Source of the DNA: a virus
Taxonomy: Duplodnaviria > Caudoviricetes
IMG/VR virus record: IMGVR_UViG_3300015262_000004
Span: 560 to 64,559 of that record
Strand: one strand, 5' to 3'
Length of the DNA stretch: 64,000 nt
Shown here: in pieces, positions 1,026-52,955 of the stretch
How the letters are laid out: every line of letters begins with the position of its first letter
Position numbering within the stretch: the stretch's first letter is position 1
Notes under the pieces: model-generated
Told to the model about the DNA's origin: nothing
Databases searched by the model: none
Seen by the model: only the letters and a program-made list of their open reading frames with translations
Translations under genes and position numbers: made by a program

Positions 1026-1042
1026 GTCCCTACTGTAGGGAC
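1026..1042. repeat. 17-bp palindrome copy 1 (GTCCCTACTGTAGGGAC)
   Basis: Exact palindrome, extends to 1023-1045, directly upstream of the AAA gene RBS. Confidence 0.95.
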
Positions 1043-1742: not shown

Positions 1743-2062
1743 GTAACCTCATTGCCGCTGACCTCAGCCAGCAGCGCGATCACCTGGTCTGCGTCCATGC
1801 GTTGCAAGGCTCTGACACCGGCGCGCACCACGTCGCTACGGCATACCTTGAAGGTGCGCGGAGCCAGTACGAGCTGGTCGATCTCGGCGTTCATCTCATC
1901 AGTCAGAGAGAAGGTGGTGCGCTTGAACACCGCAACCGACGGCTTTGCACCGACCGCGTAGTTCGTCGCGGCACCGGACGCGAAGGCCTTTATTTGATCC
2001 TCGGTCGCGTGCTGCTGTACCGACTTACCACCGGGCGCCAAGCCCCCTAATGATGCTTTCAT
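1721..2062 (-). CDS. small partition adaptor (type Ib centromere-binding, ribbon-helix-helix-like)
   Basis: Coupled to parA by ATGA; FKRTTFSL...IDQL...RSDVVRAGVRAL resembles an RHH fold. Confidence 0.7.
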   Translation of the reverse strand: MKASLGGLAPGGKSVQQHATEDQIKAFASGAATNYAVGAKPSVAVFKRTTFSLTDEMNAEIDQLVLAPRTFKVCRSDVVRAGVRALQRMDADQVIALLAEVSGNEVTQVKEGK

Positions 2063-2751
2063 GCTTGTGCTCCAACGCGTTGTAGTGCTGCGTGTATCGA
2101 TGGTTCATTTGCCCACAGCTCATGCACCATGGCCGTGGCATCCTCGATCGCCTTCGGGTCGGTGAATTCCCACACGCTCGAACCGTCTTCGTCCGCATCG
2201 TCGTATGCCTGGCGGTCGAACAACACGTTGTCGAGCGTGGGTATGCCCCAGGCCCTGATGGTGTCCTTCGCCGTGAGGATCCGCGATACACGGTTCGGCA
2301 GACTCGGGCACTGGTTCACCAGCGCGCGGACTTTCAGCCCCGGGTTGAGTGCCTGAGCCAGGTTCACCACCTCGACCACCTTCGGCAACGTCTTGAGGTC
2401 GCGGCGCTTCGGACGGAACGGCAATACCATGTAGTCCGCCACGGCCATGGAATGGCGCAGGGCAACCGAGTCGGATGCACCGACGTCGATAATGATGTGG
2501 TCATAGCGCTTCTTGAAATCGTTGAGCGGAGTGCTGATCTCACCACGCAAGATGGCGCACGGTACCGACACGCCTTTGCCGCCGGCTTCGATGAACGACA
2601 CCCGCTCGGCTGCCCAGTCGCTGCTGGTCAGCTGTGGATCCGCGTCGATTAACAGGACGTCGAAGCCCAGCATTCTCAGTATGACGGCCAGCGTCTGGGC
2701 TACGGTGCTCTTGCCCGTGCCTCCCTTGATGTTCCCGACTAAGAGGATCAT
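2059..2751 (-). CDS. parA: ParA partition ATPase
   Basis: Deviant Walker A KGGTGKST, LLIDADPQ, IIIDVG; 230 aa with no N-terminal HTH. Confidence 0.92.
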   Translation of the reverse strand: MILLVGNIKGGTGKSTVAQTLAVILRMLGFDVLLIDADPQLTSSDWAAERVSFIEAGGKGVSVPCAILRGEISTPLNDFKKRYDHIIIDVGASDSVALRHSMAVADYMVLPFRPKRRDLKTLPKVVEVVNLAQALNPGLKVRALVNQCPSLPNRVSRILTAKDTIRAWGIPTLDNVLFDRQAYDDADEDGSSVWEFTDPKAIEDATAMVHELWANEPSIHAALQRVGAQA

Positions 2752-3997: not shown

Positions 3998-4014
3998 GTC
4001 CCTACTGTAGGGAC
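3998..4014. repeat. 17-bp palindrome copy 2
   Basis: Extends to a 27-bp palindrome at 3993-4019, before the RBS of 3680-3976. Confidence 0.95.
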
Positions 4015-4283: not shown

Positions 4284-4709
4284 TTACTCGGCGGGCGCGG
4301 GCGTTCTCCACGATATAACGGTGTCTTTACCGTACTGGCCGATCCACTCCTTTACTTCTTTTTTCAGGATGTTCGCAGCGCGAACCACCTCACCCGTGTG
4401 CGGGTTCTTGAAGGCGTACCAGACAGTGTTCGGGCCAGCCTTCTTTGACTTGCCGGGGATCAGGTTGCCGTGTTCGTCTCTCGGCCGGGTGACAGCCTTC
4501 TTACCCCGCACGACGATCTGAAAGCTCGGGTCGACAGTCTGCACGGCTTCGTGAATGGTCTTGCCGTGGGTCTTCAACAGCTCACGCAACTCGGACTCAA
4601 AGGCCAGCTCAGCCTTGAGTTGTGGGTTGGCTTGCAGCTCTTGAATCTCTTGTTCGAAAGCCTTCATCTGCGCTTGCAGCTCGCGCATTTTTACTAGGGG
4701 GTTCGTCAT
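4284..4709 (-). CDS. MvaT/MvaU-family (H-NS-like) nucleoid protein
   Basis: N-terminal coiled coil with LKAELAFESELRELL; C-terminal FKNPHTGEVV...KEW...YG...V.SW typical of Pseudomonas MvaT. Confidence 0.88.
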   Translation of the reverse strand: MTNPLVKMRELQAQMKAFEQEIQELQANPQLKAELAFESELRELLKTHGKTIHEAVQTVDPSFQIVVRGKKAVTRPRDEHGNLIPGKSKKAGPNTVWYAFKNPHTGEVVRAANILKKEVKEWIGQYGKDTVISWRTPAPAE

Positions 4710-4733: not shown

Positions 4734-5180
4734 TTAAGCGGTGCGATGCGCGCGTGCCCTTGCCAAAGCTTTCTCGGCGATAGAGAGGTGATAGGGGCGG
4801 GTCGCATCGGTTGAGTCGTTCTCGGCGCTGATCAGAAACATGACCTCTAGGCCATCCTCCCGCGCACGCTTTTCCGCCTCCATAACGGCGGTGAAGCGCA
4901 TGATTGATTCGGTCTTATAAGACTGGTGAAACGGAGTGTCGTAGAGGGATCGTCGAACTGAGAACGTGACTGTTAAGCCGGGCGTTATCTCTATTCGAGT
5001 GTTGATATGTTTATCCAACGGGTTGTTGACGATCGGTTTAGGAACTTCCAGCCCTAACGCTCTACCCATCTCTTGCATCATGTGCCATTCAGCTAACTTT
5101 TCGGTTTGAGCTTTGGTTAATCGTGCCGACTTTAGTGCGGTGCTTTTCTTGTACGCATCTGACTTCGCAGTATTAGCCAT
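4734..5180 (-). CDS. hypothetical protein (lower GC)
   Basis: 148-aa ORF on the operon strand. Confidence 0.65.
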   Translation of the reverse strand: MANTAKSDAYKKSTALKSARLTKAQTEKLAEWHMMQEMGRALGLEVPKPIVNNPLDKHINTRIEITPGLTVTFSVRRSLYDTPFHQSYKTESIMRFTAVMEAEKRAREDGLEVMFLISAENDSTDATRPYHLSIAEKALARARAHRTA

Positions 5181-5264
5181 TTAGGTTCGTCCCAAAATTC
5201 CATGTCGTTACGCGCCGTAGCACTATATAACAGATGCCCGGGGTGCGGGCATCCACGGTACTTG

Positions 5265-5423
5265 TTAGCGACGGGCGAGTGACCCGCGCAACATGCGATC
5301 AATAGCTTTGGTGGTGAGGTACGCAGCAGAACGCTTGTACTCAGGGTGATGAGGCGTCATCTGTTGAACAGATCCTGTCTCATCGACCCAACAAAGAGGT
5401 GCCCAAGGCTTTAGCGCATTCAT
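5265..5423 (-). CDS. small hypothetical protein (52 aa)
   Basis: MNALKPWAPLCW...LARR; GGAGG RBS; ATGA-coupled to 5420-5548; below the ORF-track cutoff. Confidence 0.5.
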   Translation of the reverse strand: MNALKPWAPLCWVDETGSVQQMTPHHPEYKRSAAYLTTKAIDRMLRGSLARR

Positions 5424-5548
5424 TGGTAAGCCCTCCCACTCGGAAGCCCACCATGTCCACGCCCCTCCACCGTCACTGTAGACACATTAGCATTTAAGCA
5501 CACAGAGTTGTCACCCCCTAGTGCACAGGGAATACAAAAATTACCCAT
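5420..5548 (-). CDS. small hypothetical protein (42 aa) directly after the ribozyme
   Basis: ATG 5548 with TTGGAGAG RBS; MGNFCIPCALGG. Confidence 0.5.
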   Translation of the reverse strand: MGNFCIPCALGGDNSVCLNANVSTVTVEGRGHGGLPSGRAYQ

Positions 5549-5569
5549 CGGTTTTCTCTCCAAACAGTG

Positions 5570-5644
5570 TTGGCCTGACTCATCAGCGCAGGTAGGCCAT
5601 TGCCTGCGGACTCGGTCCCTACAGTAGGGACGGAGTTTCGTCAG
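5570..5644 (-). ncRNA. type II hammerhead ribozyme with pseudoknot (HHR-B)
   Basis: Minus strand: CUGAC-GAAA-CUCCGUCCCUAC U GUAGGGACCGAG-UC / CGCAGG CAAUGGCCUA CCUGCG-CUGAUGA-GUC AGGCCA; all core nucleotides present; predicted cut 5609/5608. Confidence 0.9.
5615..5631. repeat. 17-bp palindrome copy 3 (stem III of HHR-B)
   Basis: GTCCCTACAGTAGGGAC. Confidence 0.95.
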
Positions 5645-5853
5645 TAGGGTGTAACACCCCGGTACAACGCCCGGTGGATATGGCTCAAGCACACTTCACA
5701 GGCAACCAACTGGTCGCCGTGCCTCCCGTTCAAGGCAGCGTGGTCAATGCTCGTAAACGCGAACTCAGGCCGTTCAACCCGGCGATCGCACCAGGTCAAC
5801 ACGCTGTCCTCCGGCTGCAGCACGCACTTAACCCACTCGGGGCGATCCATCAT
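5641..5853 (-). CDS. small Cys/His protein, possible Zn-binding
   Basis: MMDRPEWVKC...WC...H...CEVC; stop codon lies in ribozyme stem II. Confidence 0.6.
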   Translation of the reverse strand: MMDRPEWVKCVLQPEDSVLTWCDRRVERPEFAFTSIDHAALNGRHGDQLVACEVCLSHIHRALYRGVTPY

Positions 5854-6140
5854 GTCCGCTTCTCCAATAGTTGCACCAACGCGTTGCAGACGGCCTGCAT
5901 TTTCCTGTGGTATGTCCTGGTCGCGGGCACTGCGCTGTGATCCACGAACCGGGGTATCAGACCGCGCTTCGTCAGTGCGGTGATCGCATCGGTCCGCGTC
6001 CAGCCCAGGTACTCCTTTAAACCCGGCGTGGTGTGTACAACCCAGTCGCCCAGCGTCCACAGATCGGACTCCCTCGGCCCAAACTCAAAGGTCACCGCAC
6101 GGTTGCCCTTGTTCCAGTCGATTCGCCACCTCATCTGCAC
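5850..6140 (-). CDS. hypothetical protein
   Basis: Coupled ORF in the leftward operon. Confidence 0.55.
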   Translation of the reverse strand: MQMRWRIDWNKGNRAVTFEFGPRESDLWTLGDWVVHTTPGLKEYLGWTRTDAITALTKRGLIPRFVDHSAVPATRTYHRKMQAVCNALVQLLEKRT

Positions 6141-6349
6141 GCTCTCTTGGTCATACGTTCGACCAGTAGGTTTAGTAGGCTGCGCCGGCTTTCGTCGACA
6201 CTCAAAGCGATCACGTTGTTGTTTCGAGGGCCACAGCTGAATGGCAATCCCAGCTTGACCAGCTCCGTAGCCACCAGCTCGGCAACGCGGGGCGGCAACA
6301 GCGCCATCGCGGGGCGGGGTGTGGCTTCCTTGCGTACGACCGTATCCAT
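6131..6349 (-). CDS. hypothetical protein
   Basis: ATG 6349 after GAGGGA. Confidence 0.55.
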   Translation of the reverse strand: MDTVVRKEATPRPAMALLPPRVAELVATELVKLGLPFSCGPRNNNVIALSVDESRRSLLNLLVERMTKRACR

Positions 6350-6363
6350 ACTGCGTCCCTCAG

Positions 6364-6756
6364 TTAGATGGGCTCTCCGTTGACGATGTCCACGGTTCCC
6401 CGCCACTCGTACCCTTGGCGCCCAGCCCAAGCACGGGCCAGCGTCTCGGCGACGTCGTCGCGAAAGGTGCCAACTGTGTACCGGACCTCAAACAGCTCGC
6501 CCGTGCTGCCGTCGACCTTACGGCGCACGTTCATGATCACCACCCGGTCGTAACTGGGTGGCGGGTCCGGTTTGTACATCGGCCCACGGCGGGCCTTGTC
6601 CCGATTGAACTGCGTGCGCTGCTGCTTGCGGCGCTTCTTGTCGGCGAGCTTCTGCTGCGCCTCGAACAGCGCCTGCGCCCGTTGTTTTATCGACCGCTCC
6701 AAGTCCTTAAAGCTCACTATCCCACTCCCGTTGGGCACAACGCGTTGTCGTGTCAT
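6364..6756 (-). CDS. basic hypothetical protein
   Basis: 130-aa ORF; C-terminal half faintly resembles 4734-5180. Confidence 0.6.
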   Translation of the reverse strand: MTRQRVVPNGSGIVSFKDLERSIKQRAQALFEAQQKLADKKRRKQQRTQFNRDKARRGPMYKPDPPPSYDRVVIMNVRRKVDGSTGELFEVRYTVGTFRDDVAETLARAWAGRQGYEWRGTVDIVNGEPI

Positions 6757-6807
6757 CTTTTTAGCGGTAGACGTGCGCTTTGTCCACTATAGCGGTGACC
6801 GTGTGTC

Positions 6808-7032
6808 TTAGCCCTCGGCGATCAGTTTGAGTTGCGGCAGGGTGACGCGCTCCAGCCAGAGCGGCCCGAATTGGTTGCGCAGCTGCTGCAACAGGTGCCC
6901 GGTTGTTGGGTCGTCCGGGTAGCTGGCCATCGTCCAGTTCATGTGCAGTTTCGTTTTCCACTGCGGGCCTTCACGCTCGGCGAACTTCACCAAGGCGGCG
7001 GCCTGCTCGGGGGTTGGGTTGCGATTTGGCAT
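6808..7032 (-). CDS. hypothetical protein
   Basis: MPNRNPTPEQAAAL...WK.KL...W...LQQLRNQFGPLWL; AAGGA RBS. Confidence 0.65.
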   Translation of the reverse strand: MPNRNPTPEQAAALVKFAEREGPQWKTKLHMNWTMASYPDDPTTGHLLQQLRNQFGPLWLERVTLPQLKLIAEG

Positions 7033-7036
7033 GGTG

Positions 7037-7246
7037 TCAGTCCTTCTCGCGGGTTTTGAGGAAGGCCAGCAGCAGCGTTTCAGCGTTGGCCATCGCCTCC
7101 AGCACGGGATAAAGATCATCCATGTTGTCGTCGCCTTTGATCTCCATGGCGCTGTAGATCGCTAGCACTTGCGTACGCACGACGTCCTGAGATTCCGCGA
7201 TGGCTTCCAGTTGCCTGCGTTGGACTTGCTTCAATGATTTGCTCAT
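7037..7246 (-). CDS. hypothetical protein
   Basis: ATGA-coupled small ORF. Confidence 0.6.
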   Translation of the reverse strand: MSKSLKQVQRRQLEAIAESQDVVRTQVLAIYSAMEIKGDDNMDDLYPVLEAMANAETLLLAFLKTREKD

Positions 7247-7470
7247 GGCTTCGCCCCGTTGTTGTAGTTGTCTACCAACACACGCACAGCCTCGGCAAGG
7301 TCTATGACCTCATTGAACAGGGCGTTGTAGTCGTTGCCAGTCGGGCTTACCGCGTTGTCGCCGGCGTGTTTCTTGTCGTTGAGGGTTTCGTCATGGGCCA
7401 GTAACCGCGCTTCGAGGCCGGCTACCAGATCGGCCACGGCGGCCAGAGTCTCGCTTGCTGATTGGGTCAT
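7243..7470 (-). CDS. hypothetical protein
   Basis: ATGA-coupled small ORF, AGGAG RBS. Confidence 0.6.
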   Translation of the reverse strand: MTQSASETLAAVADLVAGLEARLLAHDETLNDKKHAGDNAVSPTGNDYNALFNEVIDLAEAVRVLVDNYNNGAKP

Positions 7471-7658
7471 GGGTTCGCTCCTACAGGTTGTTTGGCCAGG
7501 TGCTTGAGGATGCGTTTCTTGGCAGCGTCATAACGCGCCTGAATTTCGTCCTGATCTTCCAGCCGCGCCGAACCAATAAAGCCCAGGTCGATCGCGGCCG
7601 CCTCGAATTCCTCAAGCGCTTCGAGTGCGTACTTGGATACCTTTTTGTCTTCGCTCAC
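7467..7658 (-). CDS. hypothetical protein
   Basis: GTGA-coupled small ORF, GGAGG RBS. Confidence 0.6.
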   Translation of the reverse strand: MSEDKKVSKYALEALEEFEAAAIDLGFIGSARLEDQDEIQARYDAAKKRILKHLAKQPVGANP

Positions 7659-8038
7659 AGCTCCTCCTCGAAGGTGGCCAGACCGTCAACCACCGGGCCA
7701 TCCCGGTCAAAGGCCAGCCAGTCGCAACGGTGCTCCTCGGCAAACAGCATCAGCGTGGACAGCGGGTCGTCCAGCTCATGGTTGGCCATGAACAGCTTGG
7801 TGCTTTCCGGGGCAAGGCAGACCCGGTACCCGTATTCGCTGATAGGGTCGACGATCAGGTACGGACCGACTTCGCAGGCCTCGGGGTCGATCTCAGTCGG
7901 CAGCGACAGGTCGGGGAACGCCGGGTTACAGCGGTTCTGCGCTTGCAGCCACTCAAGGTAAAGGGGCGGCAGGTGCGCCGTGCTGAGCATCAGCGTGCGC
8001 TGGATTTCCAGCCCCGCGTCGGGGTCGCTAAAGGACAT
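7655..8038 (-). CDS. DUF5983-like hypothetical protein
   Basis: LSTAHL...YGY...CDWLAFDRDGPVVDGLATF pattern (family recalled from memory). Confidence 0.6.
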   Translation of the reverse strand: MSFSDPDAGLEIQRTLMLSTAHLPPLYLEWLQAQNRCNPAFPDLSLPTEIDPEACEVGPYLIVDPISEYGYRVCLAPESTKLFMANHELDDPLSTLMLFAEEHRCDWLAFDRDGPVVDGLATFEEEL

Positions 8039-8519
8039 GTTTCATCTCCTCATCATTCAAGTCTGTGATGCAAGCAACGCTGAAATCGCCGTAATACTTG
8101 CCGCCGTAAAACAGCATGTCCTCGGCGAACGGAACCACTTCGACAGTGCCGTCAGCTTTGAACAACTGGACGCAGTTGGCCACGGCCAACGTGTTCTCAG
8201 GGACGGCCTCTGGCAGCTTGTCGTCGGTGTTGATGACCACCAACTTGGCGCGGATCTTAGGGCCATCAAAACCCCAGTCCTCCATGTCCTGATCCTTGTT
8301 GTCGCGACCGTGGTACAGGTGCAGATAGACGTCGCCACCCAGCACGCTGCGGGCCAGAGTGGTGCCACTCTGGGTGCCGTCGAACAGGCTGTCATGATCG
8401 GTGTGGAACATCCGCAGGTGGGAACCGTAGGTGATCGACAGGGAACATTCAGGCAGTAAACGCATCTCGGATTTAGTCCCGAGGCGGTTGTAGATGTCGC
8501 ATTCATCACGAGCGTTCAT
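8028..8519 (-). CDS. hypothetical protein, first gene after HHR-A
   Basis: ATG 8519 after CTGGAGAG; YLHLYHGR...DWGFDGP...YYGDFSV. Confidence 0.7.
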   Translation of the reverse strand: MNARDECDIYNRLGTKSEMRLLPECSLSITYGSHLRMFHTDHDSLFDGTQSGTTLARSVLGGDVYLHLYHGRDNKDQDMEDWGFDGPKIRAKLVVINTDDKLPEAVPENTLAVANCVQLFKADGTVEVVPFAEDMLFYGGKYYGDFSVACITDLNDEEMKHVL

Positions 8520-8538
8520 GGTTTCTCTCCAGACAGTG

Positions 8539-8611
8539 TTGGCCAGTCTCATCAGTATGCTGTGGCCATGCAACATAGACGCCGTCCCTACTGTAGGGAC
8601 GGCGTTTCGAC
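8539..8611 (-). ncRNA. type II hammerhead ribozyme with pseudoknot (HHR-A)
   Basis: Minus strand: GUC-GAAA-CGCCGUCCCUAC A GUAGGGACGGCG-UC / UAUGUUG CAUGGCCA CAGCAUA-CUGAUGA-GAC UGGCCA; predicted cut 8578/8577. Confidence 0.92.
8584..8600. repeat. 17-bp palindrome copy 4 (stem III of HHR-A)
   Basis: GTCCCTACTGTAGGGAC. Confidence 0.95.
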
Positions 8612-8621
8612 AGTGTGTTCC

Positions 8622-8912
8622 CTACCAGCGTGCCCACTCGGGCAGCTCGTTGTAGATGGACTGGGCAATGCGCTCGTAATTGAGCGCCGTGTCGATGCCC
8701 CCAGCCACTCGGCATGATCTGGCAGTCAAGGCGTTCCACGCGTAGTGCGCCAGATCCTTGGCCGCTTCCTTGGCTTGCTTGCCGTCCGAGTCGAACAGCT
8801 CCGTGGCGTGATTCCCGCCGCTGTGGCGGGTGGCAAAGGCGCGCAGCTCATCGTCGTTCATGGCGTCCAGATTCGGGATGCCATCGGGGTCAACCGGGTG
8901 AATCAGGTTCAT
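8622..8912 (-). CDS. hypothetical protein
   Basis: ATG 8912 after GGAGAG; ends YERIAQSIYNELPEWARW. Confidence 0.7.
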   Translation of the reverse strand: MNLIHPVDPDGIPNLDAMNDDELRAFATRHSGGNHATELFDSDGKQAKEAAKDLAHYAWNALTARSCRVAGGIDTALNYERIAQSIYNELPEWARW

Positions 8913-8932
8913 AGTTTCTCTCCACAAGGTGT

Positions 8933-8963
8933 GTAAGTTGCGTAACGTATGTAAGTTACGCAA
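8933..8963. repeat. short array of par-type 9-bp units
   Basis: gtaagttgc gtaacgtat gtaagttac gcaac; same unit as the parA-flanking arrays. Confidence 0.65.
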
Positions 8964-8971
8964 CGGGTGTA

Positions 8972-9244
8972 TTAAGGACGGCCGACCAACAAATTCCACA
9001 CCTCGATCTGGGCCAGGGTCGCCGCTGGCAGCTGCACAACGTGTTCGCCGGCCTGCGGTGGTGTGGCTTGGGGAAAAGCGCGGCGTTGGTCCATGTACAG
9101 GGAGAACACCGTTTCGATTGCGTCCACGGCTTCACTGATGGCGTGCGGCAGGTCATCGCCGTAGCTGTTCAACTCCGGCAGGTCGCGGCACATCACCGCG
9201 ACACCCACAGCGTCCTGTTCAAAGCGGACCGCAAAGGCGTACAT
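8972..9244 (-). CDS. HicB-like antitoxin domain, no C-terminal DNA-binding domain
   Basis: AVMCRDLPELNSYGDDLPHAISEAVDAI...FPQATP matches the HicB N-terminal pattern. Confidence 0.8.
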   Translation of the reverse strand: MYAFAVRFEQDAVGVAVMCRDLPELNSYGDDLPHAISEAVDAIETVFSLYMDQRRAFPQATPPQAGEHVVQLPAATLAQIEVWNLLVGRP

Positions 9245-9510
9245 CAGCTGCCCAGCAACTTGATGATCAGGGCCATGATCCCGCCAATGGCAGCGAACAT
9301 GCCCGCCGCTGCGGCCATCGGGTACCAGAAGGTTTCGCGGGTAAACTTCCCGGCCTCGGCTATCAGTTTCGCCGCCTCGGAATTCAGCTTGGCCGTTTCC
9401 GCTTTAAACTTCCCCGACTCCTCATTGAGCTTCGTGGTTTCGGCCATCAGTTTGGCGATCTCCGCGTGGATCTTTTCCAGCTCAGTCGTCGACAGTCCCG
9501 CACTTTCCAT
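9244..9510 (-). CDS. small coiled-coil membrane protein
   Basis: Heptad AETxKL repeats, then RETFWYP and one C-terminal hydrophobic helix. Confidence 0.7.
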   Translation of the reverse strand: MESAGLSTTELEKIHAEIAKLMAETTKLNEESGKFKAETAKLNSEAAKLIAEAGKFTRETFWYPMAAAAGMFAAIGGIMALIIKLLGS

Positions 9511-9862: not shown

Positions 9863-9882
9863 GGGTTTCTCTCCAAAGGGTG

Positions 9883-9899
9883 GTCCCTACTGTAGGGAC
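9883..9899. repeat. 17-bp palindrome copy 6
   Basis: Exact copy between promoter and RBS. Confidence 0.95.
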
Positions 9900-9936
9900 G
9901 GTGGTTCGCTTCACACATATCTCTATGTGTATAACT

Positions 9937-9965
9937 ACTATACACCTATAGGCGCAAGTGGTCAA
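9937..9965 (-). promoter_or_regulatory. sigma70-type promoter of the ribozyme-containing operon, with operator
   Basis: TTGACC-17-TATAGT; TGTATAACTACTATACA at 9928-9944. Confidence 0.75.
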
Positions 9966-9999
9966 TGCAGGCTATCGCTACAACGCGTTGTGGTAAGGG

Positions 10000-10254
10000 T
10001 TATTGCAGGCTGGTGGTCTTGGCGTGCAGGCGCACCATCCAGCGTTCGCGGTACAGGTCCATGCTCTTGGCCATGCGGCCCAAGGCCCTAGCCACTGCGA
10101 GCGGTACGTGCTCGGAATGGTCGCCGGGGATGGCTGCCAGCAGCACCTCGATGTGGATCGATCTCGGGATACAGACATCCGGCAGCGCGTCGGCTTCCAG
10201 CAGTCCGTTCAATTCGTCCAGGGCGTCCAGCAGGGTCTTGAATTCTGGGGTCAT
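10000..10254 (-). CDS. hypothetical protein
   Basis: MTPEFKTLLDALDEL... Confidence 0.5.
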   Translation of the reverse strand: MTPEFKTLLDALDELNGLLEADALPDVCIPRSIHIEVLLAAIPGDHSEHVPLAVARALGRMAKSMDLYRERWMVRLHAKTTSLQ

Positions 10255-10319
10255 TCGGCAGCGTCCAACACGTTGTGGGAGGGAACGCCGCTGGCCCCGA
10301 TACTCTGGGGCTTCGCGGC

Positions 10320-10763
10320 TTACACTTTCGACCAGCCTGCGTCTGGTACAACCTCGGCCGCTGGCCGGGATCGTGGATACCAAGACAGCCTGAGACGCTC
10401 TACTGCGTCACGTACCTGGCCGTGGAACTGGGGCGGGATGTCGCGCAGCACCAACGTATGGTCGGGGTTGTGGAGGTACCACGCCGCGCCCAACATGCCG
10501 AACCGCTCCATTACTGCCTGACACGCACCACGCACCATCGCTTGCGTTTCACCGCAGGCAACAGCGGCCAGTTTGTACGACATCTTATCCACCAGCACCA
10601 TGCGTGCGGCTCGCTGGGTACGTGGTCGCACCGCAGGCTTGATCCCGGACATCAGGTTCACCCATTGCGATTGCGAGAACGTGCGTACTTCGCGACCCGG
10701 CACGAACGGCTCAAAGTCGTACGGCAGCGCTGGCGGATTGATCGGCGTCGTCTTCTGGCTCAT
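10320..10763 (-). CDS. TrfB/KorA-like HTH DNA-binding protein
   Basis: AARMVLVDKMSYKLAAVACGETQAMVRGA; AGGAG RBS. Confidence 0.6.
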   Translation of the reverse strand: MSQKTTPINPPALPYDFEPFVPGREVRTFSQSQWVNLMSGIKPAVRPRTQRAARMVLVDKMSYKLAAVACGETQAMVRGACQAVMERFGMLGAAWYLHNPDHTLVLRDIPPQFHGQVRDAVERLRLSWYPRSRPAAEVVPDAGWSKV

Positions 10764-10781
10764 GGCAATTAACTCCTATTG

Positions 10782-11306
10782 TTACGGGATCAAAACACGA
10801 CCTTGTGCGTCGTACATCTCCCCGGTGCCGCTGATATAGACCCGGTCCGCTGGTGGCGGTGGCCGGCCTATGTACTCTTGTCCAACCTGCACAGCCTGTG
10901 CCGGTTGTTGCTGGTGGTGCTGTGGTTGTAGTGCTGGTTGGTGGTTCGGCTGGCGTACCGCTGCCAGTGGTTGCTGCGTCCCTACAGTAGGGACACCACG
11001 GCGTGCCAGCTCAACGGCGGCCGCGTCCTGCACTTCCCAGATTCCCAGCTGGCGAGTGATCAAGCCGTGCAATGTCGCCGAGTGGTGACGTGGACAGGTA
11101 ACCGTCCAAGTATCCATGAGGGCATCTGTGTCGTGCTTGTGTGCCTGTGTCTTGAGCGCTTTGTAAACACCGGACCGACTAGCACCCGTCTTGCGCACTG
11201 CGTCGGTGATGGTGTAACCCTCTACAAGGTGCAGTTTTAGCGCCTGATAGATGTCGCTCGACCGCTGGCTATACGCAGCATTGAACTGTTCGAGGGTCAA
11301 TAGCAT
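10782..11306 (-). CDS. TrfB/KorA-like HTH DNA-binding protein with Q/P-rich tail
   Basis: LTLEQF...ALKLHLVEGYTITDAVRKTGASRSGVYKAL; GGAGG RBS. Confidence 0.65.
   Translation of the reverse strand: MLLTLEQFNAAYSQRSSDIYQALKLHLVEGYTITDAVRKTGASRSGVYKALKTQAHKHDTDALMDTWTVTCPRHHSATLHGLITRQLGIWEVQDAAAVELARRGVPTVGTQQPLAAVRQPNHQPALQPQHHQQQPAQAVQVGQEYIGRPPPPADRVYISGTGEMYDAQGRVLIP
10978..10994. repeat. 17-bp palindrome copy 7 (intragenic, read as VPTVGT)
   Basis: GTCCCTACAGTAGGGAC. Confidence 0.9.
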
Positions 11307-11498
11307 GGGTGAAACCTCCAAGGTTGTCGCGCGGGCATCATAAAGCCCGTTGCCAGTATAAGGCCGCTATGGTACGTCGTCCAATAGTGGACACAGTTGG
11401 ATCCAAGGGAGACATATTGCTTATCTGGCGCCAGTTTCCTAGCGCTAAACCACCTAGGCGCTAGGTTAGTGGGTGCTAATCGGCAACAGTTCCCGGCG

Positions 11499-11515
11499 AT
11501 CCCTACTGTAGGGAC
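11499..11515. repeat. 17-bp palindrome copy 8
   Basis: ATCCCTACTGTAGGGAC. Confidence 0.9.
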
Positions 11516-11759
11516 GCAGAACGCGCACTAAGATTTAGTGCGACACGGCGAACGCTAGGTTAGTGGTTAATTGTGACGCTTAACCCACTCGGGGAGACGT
11601 AAGCGAGCGCTTAACCGGTAGACATCAGTAGACAGTCTGCGCCTTACGCGGTGGACGTGTCTACTCCGTGTGTCAAGTGTACGCGTCTACTGTTTAGCGC
11701 TCTGGCTAGGCTGCGGGGTAAAGTGGGGTAATTTGTCCACTGTGCAAGGCCTTAAAGGT

Positions 11760-12062
11760 GCACAGATGTAAGGTGCTAGGCGGCGATATGTAAAGAGTGC
11801 GGCAACCTCTTACATCGGTTCTAGGCAATGAATACAGGGCTAAATGTAACGATGTAATAAATGTAAGAGTTGCCGAGGGTAGACGTATTAGGGAACGGGT
11901 TGGCTAGGGGGACTAAGCAGCTTAGCGGGCGCCGTTGCTTCGTGGCTGTGCACCGTTAAGCCTTATGTGTCTACTCTTTAAGGTTACATTTATTACATTT
12001 TAACATCTGGCCCCGTGTTTGCTGGGTGAAAGTCCATGTAAAGGCCTAATTGGCTTTACATA
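11760..12062. repeat. cluster of ATGTAA/TTACAT repeats, candidate lytic origin or packaging site
   Basis: About 10 copies; perfect 15-bp inverted pair at 11852-11866 and 11984-11998; lower GC, no ORF. Confidence 0.5.
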
Positions 12063-12159
12063 ATAGTGGCTTAACCCCCGGCCACGCTGGGCCAAACGTT
12101 ACAATGTCCACTTGTCCACCACGTACAGGGCTGCGCCGGGCCTAGTGGCGACGTTCGGT

Positions 12160-12176
12160 GTCCCTACTGTAGGGAT
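12160..12176. repeat. 17-bp palindrome copy 9
   Basis: GTCCCTACTGTAGGGAT. Confidence 0.9.
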
Positions 12177-12404
12177 CTTGGCCACTGGGCAACGCTGCAA
12201 CGCGTTGGGGCGACGTCGCGCCGTAGTGTGTGGGTCCGCACTGGGCAACGTGTTGATGTCGTCCCTAGGCCACGCAGAGCCCCGGCAACGCGTCGCTGCT
12301 GCGTCACCCTGTGCCGTCGTGGGTTCACCCCTGTGCAACGCGTTGCCCGCGCCCCAAGCCTGCGCAGCCACTAGGCAACGCGTTGCAGCGCGCTAGGCCC
12401 GCAG

Positions 12405-12435
12405 GAACGAAGAAGCCCGGCACTAGGCCGGGCTT
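12405..12435 (-). terminator. intrinsic terminator
   Basis: AAGCCCGGC-5-GCCGGGCTT followed by CUUCGUU on minus strand. Confidence 0.7.
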
Positions 12436-12453
12436 GGTACTCCGTGCAACGTG

Positions 12454-13122
12454 TTAGGCAGCGTCGGACTCTGGCACGTCGTCACCCAGCTCGGTTACCT
12501 CCTCGACTTCGTCGGCCAACGCGTTGGACAGTTCTTCGATCATGTCGGCCATGTTCGCGATGATCAGCAACACGTCGTCGGTGTGGTCGCCAGCCCGCAA
12601 CAGATTGAGGCTGGTTTGCATGGCAGCCAAAGCGCTGGCCACCGGGTCCGGTGCTACGTGCTCGCTCTGTGCACCGTCGCCGAGGTCGTCGCCACCTTCG
12701 CCACCGTCGTTGGCCGGGGCCACTGGCAACTTAGGCGCTTGTTCCACGCGGTTGGCTTTGCGGCACTCCGTGGCAGCGTGTTGCAGGTTCTTTGGCAGCG
12801 TGGCCGGCAAGGTCACAGCCTTGAAAATGGCCATGGCATCGGCCACCCGGTTCTTGACGGACTTGGCCGACTTGGCCTCTTCGAACGTGCAACCCTGCAA
12901 CGTGCTGTACGCAGTAGCAAAGGCATCTTGCACGGCTTCACGAGCCGTGTCGGGCTCGACTATGCCGCGTGCTTTCAGCATGAGTTCCAGAACACGTTGG
13001 GACGCAGACATCAGGTCACTGGCGGCCTCGGTTACATCGGCACGCCATGCCAGCACGGAGAACTGGTTAAGTGCGCGGTCTGCAACACGTTGGGCTTTAG
13101 CTGCTTTGTTGGTGGTGGTCAT
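12454..13122 (-). CDS. hypothetical protein with acidic C-terminus, monocistronic
   Basis: 222 aa with its own promoter, leader and terminator. Confidence 0.75.
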   Translation of the reverse strand: MTTTNKAAKAQRVADRALNQFSVLAWRADVTEAASDLMSASQRVLELMLKARGIVEPDTAREAVQDAFATAYSTLQGCTFEEAKSAKSVKNRVADAMAIFKAVTLPATLPKNLQHAATECRKANRVEQAPKLPVAPANDGGEGGDDLGDGAQSEHVAPDPVASALAAMQTSLNLLRAGDHTDDVLLIIANMADMIEELSNALADEVEEVTELGDDVPESDAA

Positions 13123-13201
13123 GGTCGTCTTCTCTCTACAAGGGGTTGGGCGAAGGTGCCCGGTTGGCCGTGGTGGCCGTCTGTCTCAATGACAGGACTC
13201 C

Positions 13202-13230
13202 AATGTATACCTTTGTGGTAGACGGTGCAG
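13202..13230 (-). promoter_or_regulatory. possible promoter
   Basis: CTGCAC-17-TACATT. Confidence 0.4.
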
Positions 13231-13246
13231 AGGACGTCCACCCGTT

Positions 13247-13263
13247 GTCCCTACCGTAGGGAC
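13247..13263. repeat. 17-bp palindrome copy 10
   Basis: GTCCCTACCGTAGGGAC, extends to 13244-13266. Confidence 0.9.
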
Positions 13264-13900
13264 AACCAAGCATTCTTTTCCGGTGCACAGAGGGGGCCAG
13301 GGGGCTGCGCCGGGCGCGCGCTGTTGCTTACCCCCGCTGCACATTTGGCGAAGCCCCGACGTAACTTGACACAAAATCCCCCGGTCGCTCCGTTAACCCC
13401 GCTCCCTGGCCTGCCCCGTAACACACTGTCTACTTGACACGGTAGACACAATTGCTTAGCACTCAAGTACCAGGTAACGCTCCACCAGCGTCCACCCGAA
13501 AAACTCCGTCAGAAAATTCCTACAATTTTTAACACCTGCCCTTGCCAGCCCCCTGGAACCTGCACTAACCTTTGCTCTGCCGCCTTCTCCCAAGATTACG
13601 CGAGCCCTCCGACCGTCACGGCTCGATCAGGTCACTCGGGTAAAACTGGGCGGAAGGTGGCACACAAGCCCACCAGTTTGTGTCGCCTCCAAGGCAAACC
13701 GCAGGGAAACAGTGTCGCTCCCCCGTCCGCTACTCCCACCCAGCGGACGGGGGATCTACATCAAACGTCCGCTAAATCCTGTCCCCCGCTCCCAAATGTC
13801 CGCCGTCGGCTACCATCAGCCGGACGGAACTGGCTACACTGTGTCCGCGTCATACCTGAATCGGCCTCCACTCGGTGGCCACGAATGGAGTGCGACCACC

Positions 13901-14419
13901 ATGGCTACCAAAAAATCTACCCCCCACGAATCCGCCGCGACAACCAGTGAATCCGCCGAAGTGCTGTCAAAGTCCGGTGCCGCACTGGAACAGCAAGCGT
14001 CGAGTTATGGTGAAACCCGTCCGACCCATGTCAACGGCAAGTACGTGGGTGACAAGCGCCTCAACGAGAAAACCGGTGAGTGGGAAGCCGACCCGGATGC
14101 TGTCGCAGCTGAGGGGGGTACGCGCCCCGAGGACATCTTTGACCGCATCGGCAACGCGTTTCCACATGAGGCTCAGCGCCTGGTGATCGAAGAGATCGCA
14201 CTGCGTGCCGGCATGACGGCCGAGTCGAGCCAGGATCTGCCAGACAACTACCCTACCGGCGGCAAGTCGACCGCTTCGTTGCGCTCCGACCTGACCCGCA
14301 GCGGCGGCGAAACCAGCGGCCCCGTGCCGGTACCACCGGGAGAAAACGGTGAGGCAGCGGACACCCCGGCGCCTGCGTCCACCGACGTCAATGGCGCACC
14401 GGCCCGCACCGGACTCTGA
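13901..14419 (+). CDS. hypothetical low-complexity protein
   Basis: ATG 13901 after GGAG; followed by terminator. Confidence 0.7.
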   Translation: MATKKSTPHESAATTSESAEVLSKSGAALEQQASSYGETRPTHVNGKYVGDKRLNEKTGEWEADPDAVAAEGGTRPEDIFDRIGNAFPHEAQRLVIEEIALRAGMTAESSQDLPDNYPTGGKSTASLRSDLTRSGGETSGPVPVPPGENGEAADTPAPASTDVNGAPARTGL

Positions 14420-20150: not shown

Positions 20151-20744
20151 TCCGTGGCTTCACCCACTCCCCGGGGTAAGGAGGTATGTGTGCCCGAGGG
20201 GCGGGGCTGGAAAAGGAGGAAGCCAAACAACGGCTTCGCTGAATGGCCTTGTCCTACGCTACGCTACGGAACGGCCGGGATAATGTTTTCGCCTAACGGC
20301 TCAGCCCTTTAGGCAGTCCCTACGGGCCTGCAAAACAATAAGGTTGCGCTTGACAGCGCGCTTGTTTTAGAGCCTTTCCGGCATAGCCGGCCCCGGTAAA
20401 TCGGCCTAAAAAAATAGGCAAATTCACCCGACATTTCCTGCAGCGAGAAAGCACCTGTCTCAGCCTTTCCGCCCAACGCCATTCAACACTTTGCGGGGTT
20501 GGTTACATCGGCGCCCCGGCCCTCCTGGTGTGTTGCGATGGTGGGTTTTGAGACAGTTGCGGTGCCCGTGGTTGGGTTTTAGCTCCGCCCTGCCATTGCC
20601 TTCTCGACCCTCATAGAGGGTTCGCACCTATCGGCCTTGCCAGTCGCCCTGGGAGACCCCCTTGATGGACGACTAATACGTTCCCGCGCCCAAAGCATCT
20701 TGATTCCAAGCGTCGGAAAGAGGTATCGGGAGAGAGAAGGAAGC

Positions 20745-52638: not shown

Positions 52639-52955
52639 CAGGCGATCCCTACTGTAGGGACACTGCTGCGCTTCCACTGCGACAGCTCGGCATGCGCGAA
52701 CGCTGCCAGCACGCTGTCGAACGGGGGCGACGTATAGAACCCCCGGTTGGCTTGCCACACAAAACGATCCTGCTCTAAGTCGTACGCGGCGTAAAGGAAG
52801 TGCGTCCAGTCCCACACTGCATCCCGTGCCAACGTGACGTGCTCGCCATAGTCCGGGGTCGGCACAACGCGTGGTGCGAACCCGGCTGCCTTGAGTGTAG
52901 CCACGGCCTCACGGCCTGCCTGCTGCAGCGCCAGGCTAAAACCTTGTCGGTTCAT
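52638..52955 (-). CDS. paralogue-family protein
   Basis: LKAAGF...FDSVLAAFAHAELSQWKR. Confidence 0.75.
   Translation of the reverse strand: MNRQGFSLALQQAGREAVATLKAAGFAPRVVPTPDYGEHVTLARDAVWDWTHFLYAAYDLEQDRFVWQANRGFYTSPPFDSVLAAFAHAELSQWKRSSVPTVGIA
52645..52661. repeat. 17-bp palindrome copy 12
   Basis: ATCCCTACTGTAGGGAC, just before the VRR-NUC ATG. Confidence 0.9.

What the first reader, a model, noticed from the sequence alone, without database searches (positions are those of the whole stretch)
5570..8611. Two pseudoknotted type II hammerhead ribozymes punctuate an early operon, built on the phage's own dispersed palindrome
Seen: on the minus (mRNA) strand, 8539-8611 and 5570-5644 each contain CUGAUGA, GAAA and a GUC cleavage triplet with stems I-III. 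The two copies covary in every helix. Stem I is UAUGUUG/CAGCAUA versus CGCAGG/CCUGCG, stem II is GAC/GUC versus GUC/GAC, and the loop I to 3'-tail pseudoknot is UGGCCA/UGGCCA versus UGGCCU/AGGCCA. Each begins at or just after an upstream stop and ends about 10 nt before the shared ACACUGUYUGGAGAG RBS of the next gene. Stem III of both is the 17-bp palindrome found at 11 other sites. Known: intergenic type II hammerheads with this pseudoknot occur in bacteria and phages, mostly with unknown function. Inferred: the mRNA processes itself, leaving the upstream piece with a 3' palindrome hairpin and the downstream piece with a structured 5'-OH end next to its RBS. A factor binding the palindrome could couple to cleavage.
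Basis: partly seen in the sequence, partly recalled or inferred. Interest (0 to 1): 0.92.

Follow-up and report, generated by a model that had tools for sequence, protein, structure and literature searches.

The report
Two hammerhead ribozymes between phage genes
Two small self-cutting RNA motifs (type II hammerhead ribozymes) lie between small genes of an uncultured soil phage and probably cut its long message into pieces; this kind of element is already well known in phages, and the only unusual point is that one of their stems is a palindrome the phage also uses elsewhere.

Summary
On the minus strand, 8538-8612 and 5569-5643 are complete type II hammerheads. Each has an intact core, a short stem II and a 6-bp loop I/3'-tail pseudoknot. 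Predicted cuts are C8578|U8577 and C5609|C5608. Rfam Hammerhead_II matches both full length at 34.6 and 33.1 bits, just under its 37-bit cut-off. A model built only from 91 other phage hammerheads scores them 65.5 and 66.9 bits. The two copies differ by 9 compensatory pair changes.

It is not new in kind. A loose motif scan found at least 119 IMG/VR contigs with the same pseudoknotted subclass. In 65 of 85 distinct copies it sits between a stop codon and the next ribosome-binding site. Perreault et al. 2011 described such clusters in prophages. This scan has noted phage hammerheads 432 times on other DNA.

The one local peculiarity is real. Stem III is the phage's 17-bp palindrome, present in 13 copies against 0.08 expected. 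A 72%-identical relative keeps it. Four copies stand alone before the same ribosome-binding site.

Cleavage, transcription and any palindrome-binding factor are untested. Verdict: a new member of a known kind, of low to moderate interest.

The parts
8538..8612 (-). Hammerhead 1 (type II). Stem II 8611-8609 with 8548-8546; GAAA 8608-8605; stem III (12 bp, contains the palindrome) 8605-8579; cleavage after C8578; stem I hairpin 8577-8556; CUGAUGA 8555-8549; pseudoknot 8568-8563 with 8545-8540.
   Evidence: RF02276, 34.6 bits, full length; R2, 65.5 bits, E 5e-16
5569..5643 (-). Hammerhead 2 (type II). Stem II 5642-5640 with 5579-5577; GAAA 5639-5636; stem III 5636-5610 (one C-C mismatch); cleavage after C5609; stem I hairpin 5608-5587; CUGAUGA 5586-5580; pseudoknot 5599-5594 with 5576-5571.
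   Evidence: RF02276, 33.1 bits, full length; R2, 66.9 bits, E 1.9e-16
8622..8912 (-). Gene upstream of hammerhead 1 (96 aa from the ATG with a GGAGAG site; the open frame reaches 8999). Stop TAG at 8624-8622.
   Evidence: no family found
8028..8519 (-). Gene downstream of hammerhead 1 (163 aa). GGAGAG at 8530-8525, ATG at 8519-8517.
   Evidence: Homologues of the same length and start, 70-100% identical. No family found.
5641..6060 (-). Gene upstream of hammerhead 2 (139 aa). Its stop TGA at 5643-5641 overlaps stem II.
   Evidence: weak phrog_4090 match
5420..5548 (-). Small gene downstream of hammerhead 2 (42 aa). GGAGAG at 5561-5556, ATG at 5548-5546.
   Evidence: no family found
9883..9899 (-). 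Stand-alone palindrome directly before a GGAGAG site and ATG 9862, with no ribozyme core. It lies downstream of a sigma-70-like site at 9965-9937.
   Evidence: kept in relative L013
9531..9547 (-). Stand-alone palindrome directly before a GGAGAG site and ATG 9510.
3998..4014 (-). Stand-alone palindrome directly before a GGAGAG site and ATG 3976.
1026..1042 (-). Stand-alone palindrome directly before a GGAGAG site and an ATG. It lies downstream of a sigma-70-like site at 1140-1111.
   Evidence: kept in relative L020
9937..9965 (-). Sigma-70-like promoter site (TTGACC-17-TATAGT, 10 of 12). Candidate start of the transcript that carries both ribozymes.
   Evidence: A consensus match only: such sites are not enriched over shuffles.

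Best explanation
Both elements are genuine cis-acting type II hammerhead ribozymes of the pseudoknotted subclass that is common in phages. They are transcribed as part of a long leftward (minus-strand) message for small accessory genes.

Once the 3' strand (CUGAUGA, stem II strand, tail) has been made, each folds. The loop I/tail pseudoknot holds stems I and II side by side, and the RNA cuts itself after the GUC, at C8578|U8577 and C5609|C5608.

The cut gives two pieces:
- The upstream piece ends in the 12-bp palindrome hairpin with a 2',3'-cyclic phosphate.
- The downstream piece starts with a 5'-OH at the base of stem I, about 45 nt before its GGAGAG site.

The likely result is that one transcript becomes separately stable and separately translated units, here a block of about 3 kb and its neighbours.

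Shown here: motif, fold, covariation, position, and family membership by model score. Inferred: transcription, cleavage, and any effect on stability or translation.

Stem III carries the phage's own palindrome because that sequence is under a separate constraint. Stem III of a hammerhead is free to take any pairing sequence.
For: - Core and pairs: read directly, all core positions and the closing pairs A15.1-U16.1, G10.1-C11.1 and N1.1-N2.1 are present.
- Rfam: RF02276 matches over the full length. These are the only two hits in the 64.5-kb genome, and 0 of 14 control genomes ring.
- Covariation: 28 pairs are 96.4% paired. 9 pairs changed on both sides (6 in stem I and 1 each in stems II, III and the pseudoknot), against 0-2 when the partners are slid.
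- Independent model: R2, built from 91 IMG/VR hammerheads, gives 66.9 and 65.5 bits. The next best window hit is 14.8 bits.
- Those relatives are true RF02276 members: 25 hits above the cut-off in 14 loci.
- Layout: of 85 distinct relatives, 69 follow a stop within 15 nt, 80 precede a Shine-Dalgarno site plus start within 60 nt, and 65 do both.
- Natural variation: in run X7, 5614 G>C turns the only stem III mismatch of hammerhead 2 into a C-G pair.
- Literature: clustered prophage hammerheads cleave in vitro and were proposed to process long phage transcripts (PMC3088659, passages). Three type II hammerheads next to phage-like genes cleave in vivo (PMC8782182, passages).
Against: - Both scores lie under Rfam's 37-bit cut-off (34.6 and 33.1).
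- There is no RNA evidence, so neither transcription nor cleavage is shown.
- Nested folding alone prefers the pseudoknot helix to stem I in hammerhead 1 (-32.6 against -28.7 kcal/mol). The program cannot model both helices together.
- The covariation rests on two sequences.
- Promoter-like sites are no more frequent than in shuffles.
- The only hammerhead-like element in the one related complete phage found (G001) has a changed core, CUGAGGU. Copies can therefore decay.
- The closest isolate, Pseudomonas phage Rollin, has none.
Confidence: 0.8

Rival explanations
1. The palindrome is the primary functional element. It would be a sequence-specific RNA hairpin or DNA site read by a phage or host factor at 13 places. 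The two ribozymes are wired to it, so that binding gates cleavage, or the ribozyme makes in cis the cut that a protein makes at the other copies.
For: - There are 13 copies against 0.08 expected.
- The exact sequence, not merely a hairpin, is kept at matching places in L013, which is only about 72% identical.
- Four copies stand alone directly before the same GGAGAG site.
- In other multi-hammerhead phages, stem III is no more alike between copies than stem I (identity 0.59 against 0.61 over 40 within-locus pairs). The near-identity here therefore has its own cause.
Against: - No candidate binding protein was found.
- The stand-alone copies have no GAAA or GUH around them, so they are not half-ribozymes.
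- Some copies lie in a coding region or in non-coding DNA with no ribosome-binding site.
- The imperfect copies do not settle the strand: G-U pairing fits the minus-strand RNA at 11499 and 52645 but the plus strand at 12160.
- Recombination between cassettes could also spread one sequence.
Confidence: 0.12
2. The ribozymes are passengers of mobile gene-start cassettes (ribozyme plus ribosome-binding site plus gene) that are shuffled by recombination. They mark mosaic joints and bring little or no benefit to expression.
For: - In run X7, two contigs stop matching at 5644 and 8619, the 5' edges of the two ribozymes, while ribozyme and downstream gene match on.
- In the same run, the first 36 nt of hammerhead 1 are also found 15 nt after position 6386, a place with no ribozyme here.
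- An 8-nt direct repeat, ACACUGUC, flanks hammerhead 1 exactly.
- Perreault et al. note that the flanked genes are not constant (PMC3088659).
Against: - The cores are intact and there are 9 compensatory changes, which argues for selection on the fold.
- The fixed stop-ribozyme-start layout in 65 of 85 relatives points to a role in expression.
- The mosaic evidence is three contigs of one run, and the difference tables were cut (76 rows not shown).
Confidence: 0.06
3. The 2,969-nt piece between the two cuts is joined end to end into a circular polycistronic RNA.
For: The piece would carry a 5'-OH and a 2',3'-cyclic phosphate, the ends that RtcB-type ligases join (established knowledge, recalled).
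Against: - A hybrid ribozyme at the joint would have an A-A mismatch in the middle of its 3-bp stem II: GAC from copy 2 against GAC from copy 1 (read).
- The phage shows no RtcB, RNA_ligase or 2_5_RNA_ligase2 domain.
- Perreault et al. looked for circular or spliced products and found none (PMC3088659).
Confidence: 0.02

Closest known systems
Type II hammerhead ribozymes of bacteria and prophages (Rfam RF02276; Perreault et al. 2011, PMC3088659)
   Same: Same core, same open-stem-II topology, a short stem II and a loop I/3'-tail pseudoknot. They lie between genes of phage operons, several per transcript. The proposed role is also the same: cutting long phage transcripts into gene-length or operon-length mRNAs.
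   Different: Both copies score 2.4-3.9 bits under Rfam's cut-off, in an alignment with an 8-nt insertion in stem III and one inserted base after CUGAUGA. Stem III is a 12-bp hairpin made of a 17-bp palindrome that the phage also carries at 11 other places. None of the 52 distinct relatives tested showed a stand-alone copy of its stem III: 5 had a second copy, and in the 3 cases where that copy could be read it was another hammerhead.
The three type II hammerheads of Desulfovibrio vulgaris, shown active in vivo by cyPhyRNA-seq (PMC8782182)
   Same: Type II hammerheads near hypothetical and phage-like genes, two of them close together. Their cleavage ends were mapped in cells (passages).
   Different: Those are chromosomal loci with experimental proof. 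Here there is an uncultured phage genome and no RNA data.
Protein-made intercistronic cuts and protective hairpins in polycistronic mRNAs, such as RNase III sites in T7 early mRNA and REP hairpins (recalled, not tested here)
   Same: It works in the same way: an internal cut next to a stable hairpin leaves the upstream message with a 3' hairpin and frees the downstream cistron.
   Different: The cut is made by the RNA itself, and the ends are 2',3'-cyclic phosphate and 5'-OH. It is not a member of those systems.

Membership tests
Hammerhead ribozyme, type II (RF02276) | Conserved catalytic core: CUGAUGA, GAAA and a UH cleavage triplet | tested here: met
   Both copies read CUGAUGA, GAAA and GUC with no change.
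Hammerhead ribozyme, type II (RF02276) | Type II topology: stems I and III closed by loops, stem II open, in the order stem II strand, GAAA, stem III, UH, stem I, CUGAUGA, stem II strand | tested here: met
   The Rfam alignment covers model positions 1-66 of 66 for both. The helices were counted.
Hammerhead ribozyme, type II (RF02276) | Pairs next to the core (A15.1-U16.1, N10.1-N11.1, N1.1-N2.1), used as acceptance criteria by Perreault et al. (PMC3088659) | tested here: met
   A-U, G-C and U-A in copy 1; A-U, G-C and C-G in copy 2.
Hammerhead ribozyme, type II (RF02276) | Pseudoknot of 4 or more pairs between loop I and the tail 3' of stem II | tested here: met
   6 pairs in both copies, one of them changed on both sides (A-U to U-A).
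Hammerhead ribozyme, type II (RF02276) | Score at or above Rfam's curated gathering cut-off of 37 bits (an annotation threshold, not a structural feature) | tested here: not met
   34.6 and 33.1 bits. In the alignment stem III carries an 8-nt insertion and there is one inserted base after CUGAUGA. An independent model of 91 phage members gives 65.5 and 66.9 bits. 25 hammerheads in 14 of the loci from which those sequences came pass the Rfam cut-off. I file the two as members on structure and on that model, and note that Rfam's automatic annotation would miss them.
Hammerhead ribozyme, type II (RF02276) | Mg2+-dependent self-cleavage at the predicted bond | not testable with these tools
   No experiment was possible, and no RNA run was listed for this DNA.
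Clustered phage/prophage hammerheads flanking genes (Perreault et al. 2011) | Two or more hammerheads on the coding strand of one gene run, each between a stop codon and the next start | tested here: met
   Stops are at 8624-8622 and 5643-5641; starts are at 8519 and 5548, each with GGAGAG. The same layout holds in 65 of 85 IMG/VR relatives.

The most novel reading that the evidence does not exclude
The 17-nt palindrome is the recognition hairpin of a still unidentified phage or host factor that acts at 13 places. At two of them it doubles as stem III of a hammerhead, so RNA self-cleavage is switched or timed by that factor. This would be a natural protein-gated hammerhead. The four ribozyme-free cassettes in the same region would serve as built-in controls.
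Probability: 0.1. Interest if true: 0.7.

Novelty: new member of a known kind. Interest (0 to 1): 0.3.

Why it matters
The biological role of phage hammerheads is still open. The 2019 review says that additional work is needed (PMC6765202). This phage adds two more members.

It also offers a modest natural comparison. Along one stretch of minus-strand genes the same hairpin-plus-RBS gene start occurs with a ribozyme (2 sites) and without one (4 sites). Reporter tests could therefore ask directly what the self-cut adds to stability or translation.

It also shows that Rfam's cut-off misses members with a long stem III.

Tried and rejected
Searches for relatives gave little.
- Megablast of 5000-9500 against phage records found no match.
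- Blastn found only an 88-nt coding match in two Brevundimonas phages.
- The palindrome has 0 hits in IMG/VR.
- It has 34 metagenome and 5 genome loci, of which only L013 and L020 are relatives. The rest are single chance copies with no cassette.
- A terminase-based locus search found none.
- The closest isolate, Pseudomonas phage Rollin (TerL 57% identical), has no hammerhead.
Orthologous copies of hammerhead 1 could therefore not be aligned.

RNA evidence: no RNA holder is listed for this DNA.

Other negative or limited results:
- The second weak Rfam hit in G001 (L046) lacks the core and was dropped as spurious.
- The stand-alone palindromes are not decayed or half hammerheads. Model R1, run with filters off, matches only their stem III part, and no GAAA or GUH flanks them.
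- 'Stem III is generally the conserved part in multi-hammerhead phages' is rejected: identity 0.59 against 0.61 over 40 pairs.
- 'Other phages also reuse stem III as a free hairpin' is not supported. 5 of 52 have a second copy of stem III. The second copy was seen for 3 of them (L088, L108, L123) and is another hammerhead. For the other two (L060, L057) the 12-mer check showed only the hammerhead itself.
- No RtcB, RNA ligase or 2',5'-ligase domains are present in the phage.
- The read laying tables were cut (76 difference rows not shown). For X7 record 22, only 7 of 9 differences are listed, so I cannot say that 5614 is the only change inside hammerhead 2. I saw no differences listed inside hammerhead 1.
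- Supplements of PMC3088659 (alignments, Figures S1-S8) are closed. They may already hold similar sequences.
- Print check for 'stem III equals a dispersed phage palindrome': full-text searches found nothing. The only near mention is palindromic stem III/loop III in eukaryotic hammerheads that may dimerise (legend of Figure S8).
- Script error, fixed. A search term was too short, corrected.


Full report
**What is there.** The window is an IMG/VR virus record of 64,559 bp with direct terminal repeats.

**Is it more than chance?**
- At Rfam's gathering thresholds the window shows only a PAGEV RNA at 20477-20715.
- With an E-value threshold on 5400-8800, RF02276 (Hammerhead_II) matches both sites over the whole model. 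The scores are 34.6 and 33.1 bits against a cut-off of 37, with E = 1.6e-4 and 3.9e-4.
- Over the whole genome these are the only two hits (E = 7e-7 and 1.7e-6), and 0 of 14 control genomes ring.
- In the Rfam alignment stem III carries an 8-nt insertion and there is one extra base after CUGAUGA.
- To test membership without leaning on the window, I scanned IMG/VR for a loose motif of the 3' part. Of 86 matches, 71 have CGAAA upstream.
- A model of the two window copies (R1) found 91 hammerheads in those 80 loci.
- A second model built only from those 91 (R2) scores the window copies 66.9 and 65.5 bits (E about 1e-16). The next window hit scores 14.8 bits.
- In 14 of those loci Rfam itself Hammerhead_II matches above its cut-off. 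The sequences behind R2 are therefore ordinary family members.

**Covariation.** The two copies align without gaps over 85 columns. Of the 28 pairs in stems I-III and the pseudoknot, 96.4% of cells pair. Nine pairs differ on both sides while staying paired: six in stem I and one each in stem II, stem III and the pseudoknot. With the partners slid by 1-3 columns, only 0-2 such pairs remain and 29-38% of cells pair. Two sequences make a small sample, but almost every difference inside the motif is either compensatory or in a loop. A relative in run X7 reads C for G at 5614, which turns the single C-C mismatch of stem III in copy 2 into a C-G pair. The difference table was cut, so other changes may exist.

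**Context.**
- The flanking genes are on the minus strand. A 96-aa gene ends at TAG 8624-8622, and a 163-aa gene starts at ATG 8519 behind GGAGAG. A 139-aa gene ends at TGA 5643-5641, inside stem II, and a 42-aa gene starts at ATG 5548 behind GGAGAG.
- The start of the 163-aa gene is confirmed by homologues of the same length.
- Nearly all neighbours have no known family. Exceptions are a DUF5983 protein, an MvaT-like protein and a ParA-type ATPase.
- I found DNA polymerase A, a DUF927 protein, an SNF2 helicase and a ligase, but no RNA polymerase among the ten large minus-strand frames scanned.
- A sigma-70-like site at 9965-9937 could start the transcript. Such sites are no commoner than in shuffles, so 'early operon' is an inference.
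- The host is unknown. The hints are the closest isolate, Pseudomonas phage Rollin (TerL 57% identical), the MvaT domain, and the soil and rhizosphere runs that hold the DNA.

**How ordinary is it?**
- Of 85 distinct IMG/VR relatives, 69 follow the stop of an ORF of at least 40 codons within 15 nt. In 41 of them the stop ends exactly 2 nt before GAAA, so it overlaps stem II as in copy 2.
- 80 of the 85 are followed by a Shine-Dalgarno site and a start within 60 nt, and 65 show both features.
- Loci carry up to six copies.
- Perreault et al. 2011 described type II hammerheads, the loop I/tail pseudoknot, and clusters that flank single genes or short gene blocks in prophages. They proposed processing of long phage transcripts and looked in vain for circular products (PMC3088659, passages).
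- In vivo cleavage of type II hammerheads beside phage-like genes is shown for Desulfovibrio (PMC8782182, passages).
- The 2019 review still calls the purpose open (PMC6765202, passage).
- This scan has 432 earlier notes on phage hammerheads, in at least 382 genomes.

**The palindrome.**
- The 17-mer occurs 13 times against 0.08 expected.
- Four copies (1026, 3998, 9531, 9883) sit directly before the same (AC)UGUYUGGAGAG leader with no ribozyme parts. Two copies are stem III of the ribozymes. The others lie in a coding linker, between genes on the minus strand, or in non-coding DNA.
- L013, a metagenome contig collinear with 9866-14295 at about 72% identity, keeps the palindrome at or near the places matching 9883, 10978, 12160 and 13247. 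L020 keeps the copy at 1026. The sequence itself is therefore conserved.
- In other phages, copies of one locus are no more alike in stem III than in stem I (0.59 against 0.61). None of the 52 distinct relatives tested showed a free-standing copy of its stem III.
- The overlap of palindrome and ribozyme is thus a local peculiarity. My reading is that a hammerhead's stem III can take any pairing sequence, so it could absorb an element that is selected for another reason. What that reason is remains open. The position before ribosome-binding sites favours an RNA hairpin. The imperfect copies do not settle the strand.

**Mosaic joints.** In run X7 (about 90% identical), one contig matches 5402-5644 and another 8355-8619. 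Both become unlike the window just past the 5' edge of the ribozyme. A third contig carries the first 36 nt of copy 1, unchanged, 15 nt after position 6386, where the window has no ribozyme. This suggests that ribozyme, ribosome-binding site and downstream gene move as one cassette. It rests on three contigs of one run. An 8-nt direct repeat flanks copy 1 exactly.

**Mechanism.**
- Shown: the motif, its fold by covariation, its place between cistrons, and its family.
- Inferred from the family's tested members: self-cleavage after GUC.
- Inferred from general knowledge of RNA decay (recalled): the 3' hairpin with a cyclic phosphate and the structured 5'-OH end should slow exonucleases and 5'-end-dependent decay. 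The pieces could then differ in stability and translation.
- Also inferred: a ribosome terminating at the overlapping or nearby stop would cover stem II and the GAAA strand, so folding must wait for ribosome clearance.

**Rivals.**
- A factor-gated ribozyme built on the palindrome is possible but without evidence.
- A mere passenger of mobile cassettes fits the mosaic joints less well than selection on the fold.
- A circular 2,969-nt RNA is unlikely. The hybrid stem II would have an A-A mismatch, the phage has no RtcB or RNA ligase domains, and Perreault et al. found no circles.

**Verdict.** These are new members of a well-known kind, and the scan has found this kind of element before on other DNA. 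Interest is 0.3, owed to the palindrome overlap and the built-in comparison of cassettes with and without a ribozyme.

Noticed in passing
window 20477-20715 (-): PAGEV RNA (RF03037), 89.5 bits against a cut-off of 61.1. It is the only Rfam match of the window above a gathering score.
   Followed up: no
window 8616-8609 and 8539-8532 (-): An exact 8-nt direct repeat, ACACUGUC, flanks hammerhead 1. The flanks of hammerhead 2 share only ACUG. It may be a trace of how the cassette arose, or a side effect of the shared leader.
   Followed up: partly
L045 1501-1572 (= G001:C1:21380-21451, +): A distantly related 82.7-kb IMG/VR phage has one hammerhead-like element with the same tail and pseudoknot and a stop TAG overlapping stem II. 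Its core reads CUGAGGU, and stem III has two U-U mismatches and is not the palindrome. It may be decayed or a variant.
   Followed up: partly
L047-L126 (IMG/VR loci): In 41 of 85 distinct phage type II hammerheads, the upstream gene's stop codon ends exactly 2 nt before GAAA and so forms part of stem II. This fixed overlap suggests that translation termination and ribozyme folding are coupled. I did not see it discussed in the passages I read.
   Followed up: partly
L062, L065, L057, L058, L123: Some IMG/VR loci mix ribozyme classes: two twister-sister plus one hammerhead in L062, and a twister-P5 plus a hammerhead in L065. Others hold many hammerheads: 5 in L058 and 4 each in L057 and L123 above Rfam's cut-off, and 6 in L057 by model R1.
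   Followed up: no
window 2059-2751 (-), 4284-4709 (-), 7655-8038 (-): A ParA-type ATPase, a protein with an MvaT DNA-binding domain and a DUF5983 protein lie among the small minus-strand genes. The first two are plasmid-like or silencer-like accessory genes and hint at a Pseudomonas-type host.
   Followed up: no
window 52645-52661 (-): This palindrome copy ends 4 nt before a TGATG stop/start overlap. Its 3' arm (AGGGA) lies 7 nt before the ATG and could double as that gene's Shine-Dalgarno site, which the hairpin would hide.
   Followed up: no
window 5644, 8619, 6386 (run X7): Contigs of a relative about 90% identical stop matching at the 5' edges of both ribozymes, and carry the 5' half of hammerhead 1 after a different gene. 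The ribozyme cassettes seem to be mosaic joints.
   Followed up: partly
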